From sequence record OQ850288: a DNA stretch of 64,000 bases. One strand, 5' to 3'. The DNA is from Escherichia phage vB_EcoM_ULIM9. The translations under genes were made by a program, and so were the position numbers. Positions 23,921 through 45,885 of this stretch are shown one piece after another (the first letter of the stretch is position 1; each line of letters begins with the position of its first letter). The notes beneath the pieces were generated by a model. It was not told where the DNA came from and did not search any database. It saw only the letters and a program-made list of their open reading frames with translations.

Positions 23921-31915
<7,995 letters not shown>

Positions 31916-31916
<1 letters not shown>

Positions 31917-32155
31917 TACATTTTTCCTGCTCTTCTAAGTTCGTTGTAAGCAATTTCCTCTTTATACGACCTCTGAATTTCAAGAAATTGTCTCAATGAT
32001 AATAAATCAGAGAATGTCATAGCAAAGAGTTGGTCAAGTGTTTCTTTACACCCTTCCATACCATAAATAGCAAGCACAAATTTCATCTCGTCTGCTTCTT
32101 CATAGGTTGCCTCTACAGCAGCATCAGTTAGTGGTGTCTGTAGAGTGTTACCCAT
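31916..32155 (-). CDS. tail assembly chaperone, frameshift-extension segment
   Basis: 79-aa ORF in the -1 frame relative to 32158-32556; that frame stays open across the upstream T6 run. Confidence 0.5.
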
Positions 32156-32157
32156 GT

Positions 32158-32556
32158 TTACTGAGAAGTTAGGCTTTTGAAAATGCTTGCTTCGAAAAAA
32201 CTTCCGAAGTTTGCCTCCAGCGCAAATGCTAAGTAATCAATAAATTCACCATAGTTTGCTTGGAAGTACGTATCAATATTAAGTGGGAAGTCATCAACAG
32301 TTGCCCCTTGAAATAGTAATGTAGCCATCTCTTCAAGGTTAATTTCTTCAATTCTGTCAAAACAAGCTTCAACAAGTTCTTTAAATGGAACCATTGGAGC
32401 TTCTTTCTTACCCTTGTCAGTCAGACTTGATAGCATCTGTGCAAAAGTTGGAACAACAATTTTACCCAACTTCATAGACATCTTAATACCATCTCTTGCC
32501 CCAAGCAGAACGATATTTACTTTCTTGCCGTTAATTACTCTAGATTCTGTTTTCAT
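32158..32556 (-). CDS. tail assembly chaperone
   Basis: 132 aa; between tail tube and tape measure; TTTTTTC slippery run near its 3' end. Confidence 0.55.
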   Translation of the reverse strand: MKTESRVINGKKVNIVLLGARDGIKMSMKLGKIVVPTFAQMLSSLTDKGKKEAPMVPFKELVEACFDRIEEINLEEMATLLFQGATVDDFPLNIDTYFQANYGEFIDYLAFALEANFGSFFEASIFKSLTSQ

Positions 32557-32583
32557 TGTGATTCCTTAATACTTTTAAAAGAA

Positions 32584-32618
32584 ACAAAAAAGGGGAAGAC
32601 CTTTTAAAGTCTCCCCCT
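32584..32618 (-). terminator. intrinsic terminator after tail tube gene
   Basis: Minus-strand hairpin GGGGAGAC-loop-GTCTTCCCC followed by TTTTTTGTTTC. Confidence 0.55.
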
Positions 32619-32629
32619 TATAGGATTTA

Positions 32630-33076
32630 TTAAACACTTGACGCTGGAATTGTAGAAGTGTAGTCTAGCTTCTCACAACCAAAAATCCAAGTTTTAGAGT
32701 TTTGGTCACGACCAAGTTCAACCTGTGGTAATTCCTGCAACCAAGCGTTAATACCAGTTGCCAGAACAGAGCCTGATGGGTCGTAGATTACGAAGTTAGA
32801 AGAGATATCTTCTTCAAGTTCCATATTGTCTTGTTTAGCTTGAATTGCAGAAAGCATCTGGTTAGAGAGGGAAGTCTGCATTAGCTCAATCTCAATAGTA
32901 CCTGTCTTGTCTGCATTTCTTGTCAGAGCAACTTGACCACCTGCACCAACAACTGGTGTTACAAGTGGTGATGTTCTCTGTAGACGCAAGAATGAGTCTG
33001 GGGCAAAGCCTTCAATGGCAATACCATTCCAGCTACATACAACGTCTTTAGGGGAATATTGCTGATACATAGCCAT
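32630..33076 (-). CDS. tail tube protein
   Basis: 148 aa; directly downstream of the sheath gene, followed by a strong terminator. Confidence 0.55.
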   Translation of the reverse strand: MAMYQQYSPKDVVCSWNGIAIEGFAPDSFLRLQRTSPLVTPVVGAGGQVALTRNADKTGTIEIELMQTSLSNQMLSAIQAKQDNMELEEDISSNFVIYDPSGSVLATGINAWLQELPQVELGRDQNSKTWIFGCEKLDYTSTIPASSV

Positions 33077-33091
33077 TCCAATTTACCTCTA

Positions 33092-34444
33092 TTATTCGTA
33101 AGCCACTGTACCTTTCAAGTCAACATCCAAGATAGCCCCTGCTAAGACACCTGCGAAGGTAACGTCTTTCAGGATACGCGCTTTCTTGTCTGCCAAAGCA
33201 ACTTGAGAGGCTTTAGGAACATTAACTGTGTAAGATGACAGGAAGTTTCTGTTGACTGCTCTTTGCAGAGAGGTTTCAATGACTTGACGAATACGGGTAA
33301 TACCAGTATCATCATAAGTAATCTTACCACCCTTCTGATTAATTAGCAAGTCTCTCAGAGAAGTTTTCAGGTCTGATTCTAACCAGTCAACACCACGGAT
33401 GATATCAATCCATTCCCCACCAGAAGTAATCCCTCTACGAACCACCGGAACACCACCATCAAGGTCGATAAAGTTACAGTGACGTGCATCTAAAGCTGAC
33501 TTCTGAATACTTGTCAGAGGTCTCTTATTAGCTGGCTGTAGAGAAGCAGCTACACCAGTTAGCTGAGCATTACCCCAAGCAATTGAACCTGCATCATATG
33601 GAGCACCATAAGCAATGTATGCCATCTCTGGATAATCTTCTGCTGCTGTGTGATGCCACAAGCAAACTGTGCGAGTATACATACTCTTAGCAAGCTGTGC
33701 TGGAACATCATTTGCACTGTTTAATTCTGTACCTTGTAGTGCTGATACATCAGAGTTAGCAGTGAAGAAGATTTTCTTACGAGCCTGAATCTCAGAAGCC
33801 ATTGCTAAGACAAACTGTTGAGTTCTGTCTTCTGCTGCAATGAAATACCAGTCGGTAGAATAAGCTTCAATGGCTGCCAGAGCAGTTGATGCTGTATCGG
33901 CAGTTGTACTTGCAATATATACAGTCTGTGCTGTGGTTGTTACTTTCACAAAGTCATTATCACCAGCTTTGGTAATAATCATTGTGGCAGAACCAGCACT
34001 ACCAGTTACATTCACAGAAACCTTATCTTTGATTGTTGGGTCAGCTTCAATCTGTGTTTTAAACTGTTGCAAAACTTTCTCAGCAGTATCTGAGCTTTTT
34101 GATGTGTACTGATATGGTTGAGAAATTCCACCACCAACAGCTACAGTAATTGAGTAGTCTGTACTTTCGGTAACAGTATTAGGAATTGATACAGTGTACT
34201 GCATAGTACGTCTACCAATATAAAGCTGAGTTACTTTAGGAGTCTGACTCCAAAGTTGTTTAGCAGCCTTATATGCAGCAGACCTCTCATCGAAATCTTC
34301 AGCAACTTCAGTTAAGGAAGTGTAGCCACGTACTCTTTCTTCAAAGTTATCTGTTGAAGCTAAGAATAGTGGCAAACCAAAACCTTCTCTTGTAGTTCCT
34401 GCGGTGTTCAATGTAATATCTACATTAACAATTGGATTCCACAT
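33092..34444 (-). CDS. contractile tail sheath protein
   Basis: 450 aa; size and position upstream of tube, chaperones and tape measure. Confidence 0.55.
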   Translation of the reverse strand: MWNPIVNVDITLNTAGTTREGFGLPLFLASTDNFEERVRGYTSLTEVAEDFDERSAAYKAAKQLWSQTPKVTQLYIGRRTMQYTVSIPNTVTESTDYSITVAVGGGISQPYQYTSKSSDTAEKVLQQFKTQIEADPTIKDKVSVNVTGSAGSATMIITKAGDNDFVKVTTTAQTVYIASTTADTASTALAAIEAYSTDWYFIAAEDRTQQFVLAMASEIQARKKIFFTANSDVSALQGTELNSANDVPAQLAKSMYTRTVCLWHHTAAEDYPEMAYIAYGAPYDAGSIAWGNAQLTGVAASLQPANKRPLTSIQKSALDARHCNFIDLDGGVPVVRRGITSGGEWIDIIRGVDWLESDLKTSLRDLLINQKGGKITYDDTGITRIRQVIETSLQRAVNRNFLSSYTVNVPKASQVALADKKARILKDVTFAGVLAGAILDVDLKGTVAYE

Positions 34445-35044
34445 TTATTTTACCCCTTTGGAGTCTACATCTAGATGGATAGTATATTCTGGTGGCTCTT
34501 GTCCTTCTTCATAAACCAACTCACCATCAACAATGACACGCTCAATAATACTTCCACGTTCATCCTTCAGGACTGAGTTTTTTACAAGAGTTACAACAAG
34601 AGGTGCAGAATTTTCGAAATCTGTATTGAGATAAGTGTAATCATTTGGGATTGCTCCAGTGTCTAGTACTGTAGCCCCTGTTTCTTCAAGGATTAAATCT
34701 CTGACTGAACTCATCTCTAATCGTTGTTTAAGCTCAAGCATAATACTGTGAGCACCTTTACCATTCACCGTAATTAATACTGGAATCTGAAAAGCAATTC
34801 TGTAGCAAACTACATCATCCTCAACAAACTTATCAAGAACCCAACCATAAGGTGTTGCAGCATCTTGACAGTATACGGTAATAAATGGCTGGTCAGGTTT
34901 TAAACCTTTGTCATTTGAGTTATCAGAAGGGTAAGCTCTAATTACGTTTGGTCTATTATTTTTATCACGAGCTAGTCTGTGACCAATAACATCCACTAAG
35001 GTTCTAACTAGACCTTTTTCAAGTTCTGCTGTTTCTAACTGCAT
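34445..35044 (-). CDS. neck / tail completion protein
   Basis: 199 aa; synteny between capsid and sheath. Confidence 0.35.
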   Translation of the reverse strand: MQLETAELEKGLVRTLVDVIGHRLARDKNNRPNVIRAYPSDNSNDKGLKPDQPFITVYCQDAATPYGWVLDKFVEDDVVCYRIAFQIPVLITVNGKGAHSIMLELKQRLEMSSVRDLILEETGATVLDTGAIPNDYTYLNTDFENSAPLVVTLVKNSVLKDERGSIIERVIVDGELVYEEGQEPPEYTIHLDVDSKGVK

Positions 35045-43605: not shown

Positions 43606-43681
43606 GTAAAATAACTTGGAGAATCCGAAGGGACTCGAACCCTTATAAACCTGTTTTGCAGACAGGCACATAGCCATTTCT
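43606..43681 (-). tRNA. tRNA-Cys (anticodon GCA), CCA encoded
   Basis: Hand fold: acceptor GAATCCG/CGGATTC, anticodon loop CUGCAAA, T-arm with TTCGAGT. Confidence 0.55.
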
Positions 43682-43685
43682 GTCA

Positions 43686-43778
43686 CGGATTCAAATTGGA
43701 GGAAGATACCAGACTTGAACTGGTACACCGATTTCTCAGCTACTGGCAGTTTAGCAAACTGCTCCCTTACCTTTTAGG
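43686..43778 (-). tRNA. tRNA-Ser (anticodon GCU), type II long variable arm
   Basis: 93 nt; acceptor GGAAGAT/ATCTTCC, anticodon stem GCAGT/ACTGC with loop UUGCUAA, long variable arm, T-loop TTCAAGT. Confidence 0.55.
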
Positions 43779-43791
43779 GTTAATCTTCCAT

Positions 43792-44526
43792 TTATTTCTG
43801 TAATGCGCTCTTCATTTCTGGTGTTGCAATAGTGTCAATCACACCAGTTTTACAGGCATCGTCAAACCAGTCTGGTAAGATACCTGCTAAGAACCCATTG
43901 ATATTCGTTTTAAGGTACTCTGCAATAAGGGCAGCTTCTTCTTCAATCATCTGCACAACTTCATCTGCATAAGCTGTAATCTTTGAAATACCTTCATTAA
44001 TCTTACTGACAGCTTGGTTAGCTAAATCAGAAACAGTATCAAGACCCTTATCAATAGCATCTTGTAAGTCACTTAACACACCGTTAACACTGTCTAGTGT
44101 GCTGTTAATCATGTCAATAGCTTGCTGACCATACTCTGTAGCAACACCCATAATACCACTAAATGGTGTACAACCAACTTGTTCTCCTGCTGCACCCATA
44201 ACATTGGAATACCCCTTTGCTACCTGCATACGTGATGAAAACTCATCAATAGACTTTTGACCATAGTCTGTTAGGGTCTTAGTAGTTGCTGTAGTGCTTG
44301 TCAGGCTTGTTGTAAAGCTGTTTAGAAGGACTGTTGTAAGTCCAGCAGCAACAAGCTTCTCCTTCATTGTAGGGTCTGTTACAGAGCTAATAGAGCTTAC
44401 AAGTGATGTAGAGGCAGCTACGGTTCCACCGAGAACTGCTGCACCAGTAATAAGTGGGTTAGAAAACCCTTTACCGGTTTTTAAGAGATTAAAAATCTCC
44501 TTACCTTGTTCTGTCATCTCTTTCAT
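43792..44526 (-). CDS. hypothetical S/T-rich protein embedded in tRNA array
   Basis: ORF track frame 43792-44742 trimmed to Met at 44524-44526 (MKEMTEQ) because the upstream 72 codons run through two tRNA genes. Confidence 0.5.
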   Translation of the reverse strand: MKEMTEQGKEIFNLLKTGKGFSNPLITGAAVLGGTVAASTSLVSSISSVTDPTMKEKLVAAGLTTVLLNSFTTSLTSTTATTKTLTDYGQKSIDEFSSRMQVAKGYSNVMGAAGEQVGCTPFSGIMGVATEYGQQAIDMINSTLDSVNGVLSDLQDAIDKGLDTVSDLANQAVSKINEGISKITAYADEVVQMIEEEAALIAEYLKTNINGFLAGILPDWFDDACKTGVIDTIATPEMKSALQK

Positions 44527-44542
44527 TAAGCACCTTTGAAAT

Positions 44543-44618
44543 TGGTAGTCCAGTGGGATTTGAACCCTCTTCTCATGTTTTTCAGACACGCGCTTTACCA
44601 TATAAGCTACTTGGACTA
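44543..44618 (-). tRNA. tRNA-Phe (anticodon GAA)
   Basis: Anticodon loop CUGAAAA, T-arm GGTTCAAATCC. Confidence 0.5.
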
Positions 44619-44623
44619 TAAAT

Positions 44624-44699
44624 TGGGGTGACCTACGGGATTTGAACCCGTATAGACCATGTTCACAGCATGGGTCATTACCATTTATGATAAGGCCAC
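44624..44699 (-). tRNA. tRNA-His (anticodon GUG)
   Basis: Anticodon stem CCATG/CATGG with loop CUGUGAA; T-arm ACGGG/CCCGT. Confidence 0.55.
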
Positions 44700-44730
44700 A
44701 TTTAAGGACTCTCGTAAGAACCCTTAGAAG

Positions 44731-44806
44731 TGGCAGCGGCATAAGGATTTGAACCTTAATAGGACAGCTTCAGAGACTGCTGCATTGCCAGTTATGCTAT
44801 ACCGCT
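44731..44806 (-). tRNA. tRNA-Gln (anticodon CUG), tentative
   Basis: D-arm GCAT/ATGC, anticodon loop CUCUGAA, T-arm TAAGG/CCTTA. Confidence 0.45.
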
Positions 44807-44811
44807 AAAAT

Positions 44812-44882
44812 TGGTACTCCATATCGGATTCGAACCGATACATAACACAGATTTTAAGTCTGGCCTCTCTGCCAATTGGAGT
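44812..44882 (-). tRNA. tRNA, anticodon read as UAA (Leu-type) but short variable arm; isotype uncertain
   Basis: 71 nt; T-arm ATCGG/CCGAT perfect; anticodon loop CUUAAAA. Confidence 0.4.
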
Positions 44883-44892
44883 AATGGAGCAT

Positions 44893-44968
44893 TGGCGGGG
44901 GATGTTGGAATTGAACCAACTTCTTCGATTTCAAAGACCGAGGTTTTAACCTTGTAAACTAATCCCCT
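44893..44968 (-). tRNA. tRNA-Gln (anticodon UUG), tentative
   Basis: D-stem GTTT/AAAC, anticodon loop CUUUGAA, T-arm GTTGG/CCAAC. Confidence 0.45.
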
Positions 44969-44976
44969 TTAATTCT

Positions 44977-45534
44977 TTACTTTCTCAGTGGATGAATAAA
45001 GAATGCCAACATAACTCTTTCCCTTGAGAATGCTCTTTCTTCTGGGACAACACTTTTTAGTTTCCATCCAATATAAATTCTCCAGTAAAACTGTTTACCA
45101 AAGACTTTAATTGATGGGATAAAAGCGAATAATCCCCAAGCATTACTGTTCCACATTAGGAGATAACCAGTCTGATTATCTTCAGGGTCAGAACTTACGT
45201 TGATATTACCTTTCCACTTAGTAACATCTTTGACATCTCTTCCTAATACATGGTAAGAGAAGTTATAAGCTTTGTTTCTCCAGAGCCATCCGACTCTCTG
45301 CATGTAGACACCAAACTTACCAATCTTTCTAATCTTAGCCCATCTTTTAACGTGACCTTCATCACCATCAATCGGGTTGTCATAGGTTTCCATCCATCTG
45401 AATCCAAAAGGTAGATGTCCTTTCTTCTCACTGTAGAATGGAACTACGAAAGGTGCTAAGATGACTGCTAGGGTTGCTGCAAATGGTTCTAGTAAAGCTA
45501 GGAAAATCCATGAAGCATACTTCAAATATCTCAT
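44977..45534 (-). CDS. membrane protein embedded in tRNA array
   Basis: 185 aa; N-terminal hydrophobic helix (WIFLALLEPFAATLAVILAPFVVPF). Confidence 0.5.
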   Translation of the reverse strand: MRYLKYASWIFLALLEPFAATLAVILAPFVVPFYSEKKGHLPFGFRWMETYDNPIDGDEGHVKRWAKIRKIGKFGVYMQRVGWLWRNKAYNFSYHVLGRDVKDVTKWKGNINVSSDPEDNQTGYLLMWNSNAWGLFAFIPSIKVFGKQFYWRIYIGWKLKSVVPEERAFSRERVMLAFFIHPLRK

Positions 45535-45553
45535 CTAAATAGCCTCTTAAAAT

Positions 45554-45631
45554 TGGTGTTCCAAGACGGATTCGAACCGTCACTAATACAAGGTTTGAGC
45601 TTGCATCCTCTGCCAATTGGGATACTGGAAC
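45554..45631 (-). tRNA. tRNA, anticodon read as CAA; isotype uncertain
   Basis: T-arm GACGG/CCGTC; anticodon stem GCAAG/CTTGT with loop CUCAAAC. Confidence 0.4.
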
Positions 45632-45632
45632 A

Positions 45633-45707
45633 TGGTACTCACTAAAGGACTTGAGCCTTTTTCTTCATCTTGTAAGGGTGATGTTTTACCATATAAACTA
45701 AGCGAGT
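45633..45707 (-). tRNA. tRNA-Val (anticodon UAC), tentative
   Basis: D-stem GTTT/AAAC, anticodon loop CUUACAA, T-stem AAAGG/CCTTT. Confidence 0.45.
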
Positions 45708-45802
45708 GTGAAAGAGGTCTGAAGTTGTGCCGCTAACTCAACTCCGTGGAATTTGTTACGGTCTTCAGTTGACACCAGCGGTCTTTCACTTGACCTCTGA
45801 AT

Positions 45803-45879
45803 TGGTGCTGCTCACAGGACTCGAACCTGCATTTCCATCCTTACAAGGGATGTGTAATAGCCAATTATACGAAAGCAGC
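45803..45879 (-). tRNA. tRNA-Thr (anticodon UGU)
   Basis: Anticodon stem CATCC/GGATG perfect, loop CUUGUAA; T-loop TTCGAGT. Confidence 0.55.
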
Positions 45880-45885
45880 TTTATT

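What the first reader, a model, noticed from the sequence alone, without database searches (positions are those of the whole stretch)
32158..32210. Programmed -1 ribosomal frameshift site in tail assembly chaperone genes
The 132-aa chaperone ORF (32158-32556) ends 2 nt before the ATG of a 79-aa ORF (31916-32155) lying in its -1 frame. That -1 frame is open back through a T6 run (coding-strand GGA AGT TTT TTC GAA; plus-strand A-run 32195-32200). T TTT TTC fits the X XXY YYZ slippery heptamer. This matches the conserved G/GT-type frameshift found between tail tube and tape measure genes in many tailed phages (established literature), and would yield a roughly 210-aa fusion.
Basis: partly seen in the sequence, partly recalled or inferred. 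Interest (0 to 1): 0.5.

Follow-up and report, generated by a model that had tools for sequence, protein, structure and literature searches.

The report
Tail chaperone frameshift in Felix O1-like phage
This is the well-known "G/GT" trick of tailed phages: a slippery T TTT TTC near the end of the tail assembly chaperone gene lets a fraction of ribosomes slip back one base and make a longer 213-aa chaperone. It is real and strongly conserved, but already annotated at this site in close relatives, so it is ordinary.

Summary
The window is a Felixounavirus (Felix O1-like myophage). On the minus strand the order is sheath, tube, terminator, 132-aa chaperone (Pfam Phage_TAC_15), 79-aa ORF in the -1 frame, tape measure. 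An in-phase T_TTT_TTC heptamer (32200-32194) lies 12 codons before the chaperone stop. The -1 frame is open from 14 codons upstream of it to the tape-measure start.

A heptamer alone is not significant (63 in-phase heptamers in the window). This is the only one followed by a long -1 ORF (92 codons; next longest 35). The site is in phase in all 32 Ounavirinae loci examined and at the homologous invariant Phe-Phe in five distant lineages with 26-31% protein identity. The downstream ORF has no Shine-Dalgarno sequence and no start codon in several relatives. Third-codon-position identity reaches 0.78-0.91 around the site.

RefSeq and GenBank already carry the identical fusion for Salmonella phage Mushroom (same genus) and Citrobacter phage Moogle, and genome announcements mention it. 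I found no experimental proof. Transcriptional slippage on the T6 run would give the same protein and remains a minor rival.

Verdict: supported, already known, low interest.

The parts
32158..32556 (-). Tail assembly chaperone gene, short (gpG-like) product, 132 aa
   Evidence: ORF list. Pfam PF21822 Phage_TAC_15, E = 1.7e-19, 71 bits against a cut-off of 22. PHROG 1613 'tail assembly chaperone', E = 2.9e-48. Shine-Dalgarno pairing energy -6.1 kcal/mol.
32194..32200 (-). Slippery heptamer T_TTT_TTC (codons AGT TTT TTC = Ser118 Phe119 Phe120... of the chaperone), in X_XXY_YYZ phase
   Evidence: Sequence and phase. In phase in 32 of 32 Ounavirinae loci and in five distant lineages as T_TTT_TTC or T_TTT_TTT. 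The two Phe residues are among only 8 invariant residues in the family alignment. H_HH.U_UU.Y motifs are among the most efficient -1 motifs in E. coli (PMC4066793).
31916..32194 (-). -1 frame extension (gpT-like part): 92 codons plus stop, read after the slip. Fusion CDS = join(32556..32194, 32194..31916) on the minus strand, 213 aa
   Evidence: Translation. Codon-position divergence in this frame among relatives is 0.33/0.24/0.50 for positions 1/2/3, which is a coding signature. A conserved motif [RHY]-x-[KRQ]-[HR]-[FY] follows directly after the slip in distant relatives.
31916..32155 (-). The 79-aa ORF as usually annotated on its own (PHROG 4963 'tail assembly chaperone'); most likely not independently initiated
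   Evidence: PHROG hit E = 2.8e-55. No Shine-Dalgarno: +0.7 kcal/mol, against a median of -6.3 for 46 genes, all of which are stronger. The ATG is ATA in IMG/VR contig L010. There is no ATG at that point of the -1 frame in Kolesnikvirus phiEa21-4 or Yersinia phage P778, nor in Hafnia-like L035.
32161..32236 (-). Overlap window in which both frames are open (from the -1 frame TGA at 32239-32237 to the 0-frame TAA at 32160-32158)
   Evidence: Third-codon-position identity is 0.78-0.91 here against 0.29-0.56 in nearly all other 7-codon windows of the gene (one gap-rich window reaches 0.76). For Erwinia phages, blastn aligns only window 32211-32171, at 92.7% identity.
32214..32218 (-). GGAGG 13 nt 5' of the heptamer: candidate Shine-Dalgarno-like 5' stimulator. 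It also forms the 5' arm of a 6-bp hairpin (32220-32204). Status uncertain
   Evidence: Sequence. The spacing lies within the 9-14 nt range reported for -1 stimulators (PMC5009743 section 36). Present in Felixouna-, Susp- and Mooglevirus and in FV3; absent in Kolesnikvirus, the Hafnia-like phage and phiTE. Given the peptide, P(GGAGG) = 0.088 and P(MFE <= -6.5) = 0.018.
29709..31916 (-). Tape measure protein gene, 735 aa. Its ATG overlaps the stop of the -1 frame extension (TAATG)
   Evidence: Pfam TMP_3, E = 2.9e-16. PHROG 4036, full length. Junction sequence GGAAAAATGTAATGGCAC.
32630..33076 (-). Tail tube gene (148 aa) immediately upstream
   Evidence: Pfam KPP10_Orf10 structural protein and PHROG 280. 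It lies between the sheath gene (33092-34444, PHROG 205) and the chaperone.
32590..32619 (-). Intrinsic terminator hairpin plus T-run between the tube and chaperone genes
   Evidence: Terminator scan: 13-bp stem with 6 G-C pairs. A 'terminator' feature is annotated under the match, which spans the homologous interval, in wV8, KhF1 and Mordin; its exact position in those records was not opened.

Best explanation
This is the tail assembly chaperone recoding site of a Felix O1-like myophage.
- Most ribosomes translate the 132-aa chaperone (gpG-like) to its TAA stop.
- A minority slip while tRNA-Phe occupies UUU in the P site and UUC in the A site of U_UUU_UUC.
- Both tRNAs re-pair one base back (UUU, UUU), and decoding continues with CGA in the -1 frame.
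- The result is a 213-aa fusion, ...EANFGSFF-RSKHFQKP...GKM, that ends one base into the tape-measure start codon.

By analogy with lambda gpG/gpGT:
- the shared N-terminal part coats the tape measure protein;
- the rarer C-terminal extension recruits the tube protein;
- so the slip rate sets the ratio of the two chaperones.

Shown here: the anatomy, the phase, the conservation and the lack of an independent start for the downstream ORF.
Inferred: that the shift is ribosomal, its efficiency, and the binding roles of the two parts.
For: 1. Context. Tail terminator, sheath, tube, chaperone, -1 ORF and tape measure lie in that order, with family hits for each.
2. In-phase T_TTT_TTC 12 codons before the stop, with the -1 frame open across it. 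It is the only heptamer in the window with a long -1 ORF behind it.
3. Conservation.
   - The heptamer is present and in phase in 32 of 32 Ounavirinae loci, and in phiEa21-4, Yersinia phage P778 and Moogle.
   - It sits at the homologous invariant Phe-Phe in FV3 (Vequintavirus), phiTE (Certrevirus), Alteromonas phage PT11-V22 and Pseudoalteromonas phages HM1 and J2-1. These share 26-31% protein identity, and in each the -1 frame is open towards the tape measure gene.
   - The codon before the run always ends in T (AGT, TGT, GGT or GAT).
4. Third-position identity rises to 0.78-0.91 around the site. For Erwinia phages blastn aligns only the 41 nt around it.
5. The downstream ORF has no Shine-Dalgarno sequence. 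Its ATG is ATA in L010 and missing in Kolesnikvirus, where the ORF is still conserved as coding.
6. U_UU.U_UU.C belongs to the efficient -1 class in E. coli and is used by IS elements (PMC4066793).
7. The same fusion is deposited for Mushroom and Moogle and is described in genome announcements (PMC4319497; PMC5543628).
Against: - No experimental evidence for this phage group was found.
- There is no significant or conserved RNA structure 3' of the site and no Rfam hit. Any stimulation would have to come from the heptamer alone or from the non-universal 5' GGAGG.
- The predicted protein is identical to what a one-U insertion by RNA polymerase would give, so sequence data cannot separate the two mechanisms.
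- In this genus the downstream ORF does have an ATG 2 nt after the chaperone stop, so some termination-reinitiation product cannot be excluded.
Confidence: 0.85

Rival explanations
1. Transcriptional slippage. RNA polymerase adds one extra U on the T6 run, possibly helped by the small nascent-RNA hairpin that ends 3 nt before the run. Ordinary translation of the U7 mRNA then gives the same 213-aa fusion.
For: - The product would be identical (AGU UUU UUU CGA = S F F R), as the CL1 record with T7 shows.
- The terminator scan flags CTGGAGGCAAACTTCGG followed by AAGTTTTTTC as terminator-like.
- That hairpin (-6.5 kcal/mol) is more stable than 98% of synonymous recodings of the same peptide.
- Small hairpins occur at this place in most lineages.
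- Marine relatives carry T7.
Against: - The run is only 6 nt. The review cited describes bacterial slippage on runs of 9 A or T (PMC5009743).
- The hairpin is weak and nearly absent in Kolesnikvirus and FV3. Its arms are largely dictated by the conserved E-x-N-F peptide.
- Two terminator-like hits against 0.9 expected is within chance.
- The heptamer is a validated ribosomal -1 motif in E. coli.
- The analogous lambda G/GT site is ribosomal (PMC5009743).
Confidence: 0.07
2. There is no recoding. The 79-aa ORF is an independent gene translated from its own ATG at 32155, for example by termination-reinitiation 2 nt after the chaperone stop, and the T-run is incidental.
For: - Most database records annotate two separate CDS.
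- An ATG lies 2 nt after the TAA in Felixounavirus.
- In-phase heptamers are common in this genome.
Against: - No Shine-Dalgarno sequence: weakest of all 46 genes compared.
- The ATG is ATA in L010.
- Kolesnikvirus, the Hafnia-like phage and Yersinia phage have no ATG there, yet keep the ORF as coding.
- The -1 frame upstream of the ATG is kept open back through the heptamer in every relative and encodes a conserved peptide (RSKHFQKP).
- The heptamer is conserved down to 26% protein identity.
Confidence: 0.04
3. The shift is ribosomal but happens at the second, tetramer-type site T_TTC (ATT TTC, 32181-32178), 5 codons downstream in the overlap, instead of or as well as at the heptamer.
For: - U_UU.C is the second-best -1 tetramer in E. 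coli (PMC4066793).
- It lies within the overlap window and is conserved in Ounavirinae.
Against: - Tetramers were barely shifty without a strong stimulator, and about 10-fold below heptamers.
- No 3' structure is present.
- The tetramer is not conserved in the distant relatives, whereas the heptamer is.
- The -1 peptide directly after the heptamer is conserved.
Confidence: 0.03

Closest known systems
Annotated frameshifted tail assembly chaperone of Salmonella phage Mushroom (Felixounavirus; YP_009600435.1 / AJF40599.1). Likewise Citrobacter phages Moogle, Michonne and Mijalis (Mooglevirus)
   Same: - Same gene, same position and same heptamer.
- The fusion I built by slipping at T_TTT_TTC is an exact match to the deposited proteins of Mushroom and Moogle.
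- Both are joined CDS in the records.
- The Mushroom fusion differs from this window's by two residues.
   Different: - Most other Felixounavirus records, including the best match L27, annotate two separate CDS or hypothetical proteins.
- The annotation is computational; no experiment was found.
Phage lambda gpG / gpGT (-1 frameshift at G_GGA_AAG), the prototype of the conserved tail-chaperone frameshift (Xu, Hendrix & Duda 2004, as summarised in PMC5009743)
   Same: - Two overlapping ORFs between the major tail/tube gene and the tape measure gene.
[quoted passage not shown]
- No evidence for a 3' RNA stimulator here. That lambda does not need one is from my own recollection, not from a paper read here.
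   Different: - No detectable sequence similarity to lambda G or T was sought or seen; the family here is Pfam Phage_TAC_15.
- The heptamer is different (Phe-Phe rather than Gly-Lys).
- The phage has a contractile tail.
- Products and ratio have not been measured.
Phage P2 E / E+E' tail chaperone frameshift (myovirus). From my own knowledge (Christie et al. 2002, J Bacteriol); not checked here
   Same: A contractile-tail phage with a -1 shift on a T-rich run in the chaperone gene upstream of the tape measure gene.
   Different: A different protein family and gene order. The P2 paper could not be consulted, so details are from memory.
E. coli dnaX and IS3/IS911-type -1 frameshift cassettes
   Same: - An X_XXY_YYZ heptamer.
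- A possible 5' Shine-Dalgarno-like stimulator at 13 nt, within the 9-14 nt range.
- U_UU.U_UU.C is used by some IS elements.
   Different: - No 3' stem-loop or pseudoknot.
- The GGAGG is not conserved across the family.
- Efficiency is expected to be low rather than about 50%.

Membership tests
G/GT-type tail assembly chaperone -1 frameshift (Xu, Hendrix & Duda 2004) | Two ORFs located between the major tail/tube gene and the tape measure gene | tested here: met
   The order is sheath 33092-34444, tube 32630-33076, chaperone 32158-32556, -1 ORF 31916-32155, tape measure 29709-31916, with Pfam and PHROG hits for each.
G/GT-type tail assembly chaperone -1 frameshift (Xu, Hendrix & Duda 2004) | [quoted passage not shown] | tested here: met
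   The frame offset is +2 = -1. The -1 frame is open from 32236 to 31919, and the slip site is 12 codons before the stop.
G/GT-type tail assembly chaperone -1 frameshift (Xu, Hendrix & Duda 2004) | A canonical slippery sequence X_XXY_YYZ in the correct phase | tested here: met
   T_TTT_TTC at 32200-32194, phase index mod 3 = 2. This motif class is efficient in E. coli (PMC4066793).
G/GT-type tail assembly chaperone -1 frameshift (Xu, Hendrix & Duda 2004) | The arrangement is conserved in relatives despite sequence divergence | tested here: met
   Present in 32 of 32 Ounavirinae loci and in five distant lineages at 26-31% protein identity. Third-codon-position identity peaks at the site.
G/GT-type tail assembly chaperone -1 frameshift (Xu, Hendrix & Duda 2004) | The downstream part has no independent translation start | tested here: met
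   No Shine-Dalgarno sequence (+0.7 kcal/mol, weakest of 46 genes). ATA in L010. No ATG in Kolesnikvirus, Yersinia phage or the Hafnia-like phage. An ATG does exist in this genus, so a minor separate product is not excluded.
G/GT-type tail assembly chaperone -1 frameshift (Xu, Hendrix & Duda 2004) | Both the short and the fused product are made, at a fixed low ratio, and both are needed for tail assembly | not testable with these tools
   This needs a western blot or mass spectrometry of infected cells, plus genetics. No such data were found in the literature searches.
G/GT-type tail assembly chaperone -1 frameshift (Xu, Hendrix & Duda 2004) | The G part binds the tape measure protein and the T part binds the tube protein | not testable with these tools
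   Inferred only by analogy with lambda (PMC5009743). There is no solved structure of a relative.
Pfam PF21822 Phage_TAC_15 | Score above the family's gathering threshold | tested here: met
   71 bits against a cut-off of 22, E = 1.7e-19, covering residues 9-124.
Programmed transcriptional slippage sites in bacteria | A long homopolymer run (about 9 A or T in the cases cited) | tested here: not met
   The run is T6 in enterobacterial phages and T7 in marine relatives. The criterion is taken from PMC5009743.
dnaX / IS-type stimulated -1 frameshift cassette | A 5' Shine-Dalgarno-like element 9-14 nt upstream | tested here: inconclusive
   GGAGG lies 13 nt upstream in this window and in Susp-, Mooglevirus and FV3, but is absent in Kolesnikvirus, the Hafnia-like phage and phiTE. 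P = 0.088 given the peptide.
dnaX / IS-type stimulated -1 frameshift cassette | A 3' stem-loop or pseudoknot 5-9 nt after the heptamer | tested here: not met
   Folding z-scores from -1.7 to +1.1 in 10 lineages, with no common structure. The only notable hairpin starts 38 nt downstream.

The most novel reading that the evidence does not exclude
The slip site may be more than a bare heptamer, in three ways.
- The same Phe-Phe T-run has been kept at one homologous, invariant position of the Phage_TAC_15 chaperone family across Ounavirinae, Vequintavirinae (Vequintavirus, Certrevirus), Myoalterovirus and Qingdaovirus-like marine phages. In most of those the frameshift is not annotated.
- In the Felix O1 clade the slip site is preceded by an unusually stable codon choice. 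This reads either as a GGAGG 13 nt upstream (a dnaX-like 5' stimulator) or as a terminator-like nascent hairpin that would promote RNA polymerase slippage on U6.
- The phage also carries its own tRNA-Phe(GAA) and tRNA-Ser(GCU), the decoders of the site, which could tune the shift rate.
Probability: 0.12. Interest if true: 0.4.

Novelty: already known. Interest (0 to 1): 0.15.

Why it matters
Mostly for annotation quality. The majority of roughly 300 Felix O1-like genome records list two separate "chaperone" or "hypothetical" CDS. The evidence here supports one short product plus one 213-aa frameshift product, as in the Mushroom and Moogle records. The same correction probably applies to rV5-like, phiTE-like and marine relatives.

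Biologically the site sets the ratio of two chaperones that control tail assembly, so it matters for anyone engineering these therapeutic or biocontrol phages. Recoding the T-run or "fixing" it to T7 should disturb tail production. It opens no new question.

Tried and rejected
- A 3' stimulatory RNA structure. Folding 42 and 67 nt downstream of the heptamer in 10 lineages gave z-scores around zero and no shared structure. The one hairpin with z = -2.3 starts 38 nt downstream, too far to act on a ribosome at the site.
- Rfam: only a chance-level hit, E = 0.63.
- Solved structures and NCBIfam for the fusion: nothing.
I reached distant lineages by tblastn instead.
- Xu et al. 2004 is not held in the library.
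- The rV5 genome/proteome paper does not mention a frameshift.
- I considered sequencing error or a pseudogene as the cause of the frame break. I rejected this because the T6 and both frames are identical in state in 32 of 32 independent genomes and contigs.
- I did not run structure prediction or the large protein-database searches. Family membership was already clear from Pfam and PHROGs, and those jobs would not bear on the mechanism.

Full report
**What the window is.**
- A megablast of 29700-34500 finds 297 phage records. The best is Escherichia phage L27 at 97.6% identity, and nearly all are Felixounavirus or other Ounavirinae, i.e. Felix O1-like myophages.
- On the minus strand the genes run as follows:
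  - tail terminator, 34445-35044;
  - sheath, 33092-34444;
  - tube, 32630-33076;
  - a 132-aa ORF, 32158-32556;
  - a 79-aa ORF, 31916-32155;
  - a 735-aa tape measure protein, 29709-31916.
- The 132-aa protein matches Pfam Phage_TAC_15 (E = 1.7e-19) and PHROG 1613 "tail assembly chaperone".
- The 79-aa ORF matches only PHROG 4963, also named tail assembly chaperone.
- A strong intrinsic terminator (32619-32590) separates the tube and chaperone genes.

**The observation.**
- The chaperone stop TAA is at 32160-32158, followed by AC, then ATG at 32155. The second ORF is therefore in the -1 frame.
- The coding strand reads GGA AGT TTT TTC GAA. The heptamer T_TTT_TTC (32200-32194) is in X_XXY_YYZ phase.
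- The -1 frame is open from a TGA at 32239-32237 to the TAA at 31918-31916. That TAA overlaps the tape-measure ATG (TAATG).
- Slipping at the heptamer gives a 213-aa protein...EANFGSFF/RSKHFQKPNFSVNMGNT...GKM.

**Is it more than chance?**
- The heptamer alone is not. The window holds 63 in-phase X_XXY_YYZ heptamers in 16,837 codons of long ORFs, about 0.5 per gene of this size.
- This is the only one followed by a long open -1 frame: 92 codons, against 35, 30 and 17 for the next three.
- It is the only in-phase TTTTTTC in the window, and the only T_TTTTTC among 15 Phe-Phe dicodons on this strand.

**Comparative evidence.** This is the strongest line.
- All 31 IMG/VR loci that encode a relative, plus the window, carry TTTTTTC in phase with the -1 frame open to the tape-measure start.
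- So do Erwinia phage phiEa21-4 (Kolesnikvirus, about 40% protein identity), Yersinia phage P778 and Citrobacter phage Moogle.
- More distant relatives found by tblastn share 26-31% identity: Vequintavirus FV3, Certrevirus phiTE, Alteromonas phage PT11-V22, and Pseudoalteromonas phages HM1 and J2-1. They have T_TTT_TTC or T_TTT_TTT at the homologous position, as the only in-phase heptamer of the gene. Their -1 frame is open for 96-123 codons towards the tape measure gene.
- In an alignment of eight chaperones only 8 residues are invariant, and two of them are the Phe-Phe encoded by the heptamer.
- The codon before the run always ends in T, whatever the residue.
- Third-codon-position identity among eight Ounavirinae sequences is 0.29-0.56 along nearly all of the gene (one gap-rich window reaches 0.76). 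It is 0.78-0.91 in the windows covering the heptamer and the next ten codons.
- Consistently, blastn aligns Erwinia phages to the query only over window 32211-32171, at 92.7% identity.
- In the -1 frame the downstream part diverges as a coding sequence: per-position differences are 0.33, 0.24 and 0.50. It begins, directly after the slip, with a motif kept even in distant relatives, [RHY]-x-[KRQ]-[HR]-[FY].

**The downstream ORF is not a normal gene.**
- Its ATG has no Shine-Dalgarno pairing: +0.7 kcal/mol.
- All 46 long minus-strand ORFs score better (median -6.3), and the tail genes score -5.1 to -10.7.
- In one Felixounavirus contig (L010) the ATG is ATA.
- In Kolesnikvirus, a Hafnia-like phage and the Yersinia phage there is no ATG at that point of the -1 frame.
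- The original phiEa21-4 record leaves the stretch unannotated.

**Mechanism.**
- U_UU.U_UU.C belongs to the H_HH.U_UU.Y class, listed among the most efficient -1 motifs in E. coli. It shifts above 0.1% without stimulators, is under-represented in E. coli genes, and is used by IS elements (PMC4066793).
- I find no 3' stimulatory structure and no Rfam family.
- Upstream, GGAGG lies 13 nt from the heptamer, within the 9-14 nt range reported for Shine-Dalgarno-like stimulators of -1 shifts (PMC5009743).
- GGAGG is kept in Felixouna-, Susp- and Mooglevirus and also occurs in FV3, but not in Kolesnikvirus, the Hafnia-like phage or phiTE.
- The same bases form a 6-bp hairpin (-6.5 kcal/mol) that ends 3 nt before the U-run. 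The terminator scan flags it.
- Given the peptide and the phage's codon usage, only 1.8% of synonymous versions fold as well, and 8.8% contain GGAGG. This is a post-hoc and modest signal.
- The hairpin keeps alive the rival that RNA polymerase slips on the run. That would give the same protein, as the T7 run and fused 213-aa CDS in the Escherichia phage CL1 record illustrate.
- A 6-nt run is short for that mechanism: the cases cited in the review use runs of 9. I therefore rate it at about 7%.
- Function is inferred from lambda. gpG coats the tape measure protein, the T part of gpGT recruits the tube protein, and both leave the finished tail (PMC5009743).

**Comparison with what is known.**
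- The frameshift is already annotated.
- Salmonella phage Mushroom (same genus) and Citrobacter phage Moogle carry joined CDS.
- The fusions I built by slipping at the heptamer match YP_009600435.1 and YP_009145710.1 exactly.
- The Moogle and Mijalis genome announcements state that the tape measure chaperone has a translational frameshift.
- Most other records list two CDS.
- I found no experimental test in the literature searched.
- The rV5 paper does not mention a frameshift.

**Verdict.** The feature is a member of a well-known kind that is already annotated at this very site in close relatives. Interest is low. The residual points of curiosity are the depth of conservation of the Phe-Phe slip site across several myophage groups, the possible 5' element, and the phage-encoded tRNA-Phe and tRNA-Ser that decode the site.

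Noticed in passing
window 43617-48295 (-), notably 44543-44617 and 43697-43789: A cluster of 21 tRNA genes. It includes tRNA-Phe(GAA) and tRNA-Ser(GCU), the tRNAs that decode the slip-site codons AGU UUU UUC. Whether they influence the shift rate is unknown.
   Followed up: no
window 32590-32619 (-): A strong intrinsic terminator (13-bp stem plus T-run) between the tube gene and the chaperone gene. It would lower transcription of the chaperone and tape-measure genes relative to sheath and tube. A terminator feature is annotated under the match in wV8, KhF1 and Mordin.
   Followed up: partly
L003 (Escherichia phage CL1, OK040806.1), locus 344-985: This record has T7 instead of T6 at the slip site, so the chaperone is annotated as one in-frame 213-aa CDS identical in design to the frameshift product. 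It is probably a homopolymer sequencing error. If real, the phage would make only the fused form.
   Followed up: partly
L010 (IMGVR_UViG_3300045988_004167), about 50 nt after the heptamer: In an otherwise near-identical Felixounavirus contig, the ATG of the 79-aa ORF is ATA. The start codon is therefore dispensable.
   Followed up: yes
window 32204-32220 (-): GGAGG lies 13 nt 5' of the heptamer and is part of a 6-bp hairpin (-6.5 kcal/mol) that ends 3 nt before the U-run. The hairpin is more stable than 98% of synonymous recodings. It could be a 5' frameshift stimulator, a slippage-promoting hairpin, or chance.
   Followed up: partly
window 32101-32156 (-): A hairpin (CAUGGGU...ACCUAUG enclosing CUCUACAG...CUGUAGAG; the whole 102-nt fold has z = -2.3) pairs the ATG of the 79-aa ORF. 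Its conservation in relatives was not tested.
   Followed up: no
L041 (FV3), L040 (phiTE), L039 (Alteromonas PT11-V22), L042 and L043 (Pseudoalteromonas HM1, J2-1): These distant myophages have the same in-phase T-run at the invariant Phe-Phe of their chaperone and a long open -1 frame. Their records annotate separate small ORFs or nothing there, so the frameshift seems to be unannotated in these groups.
   Followed up: partly
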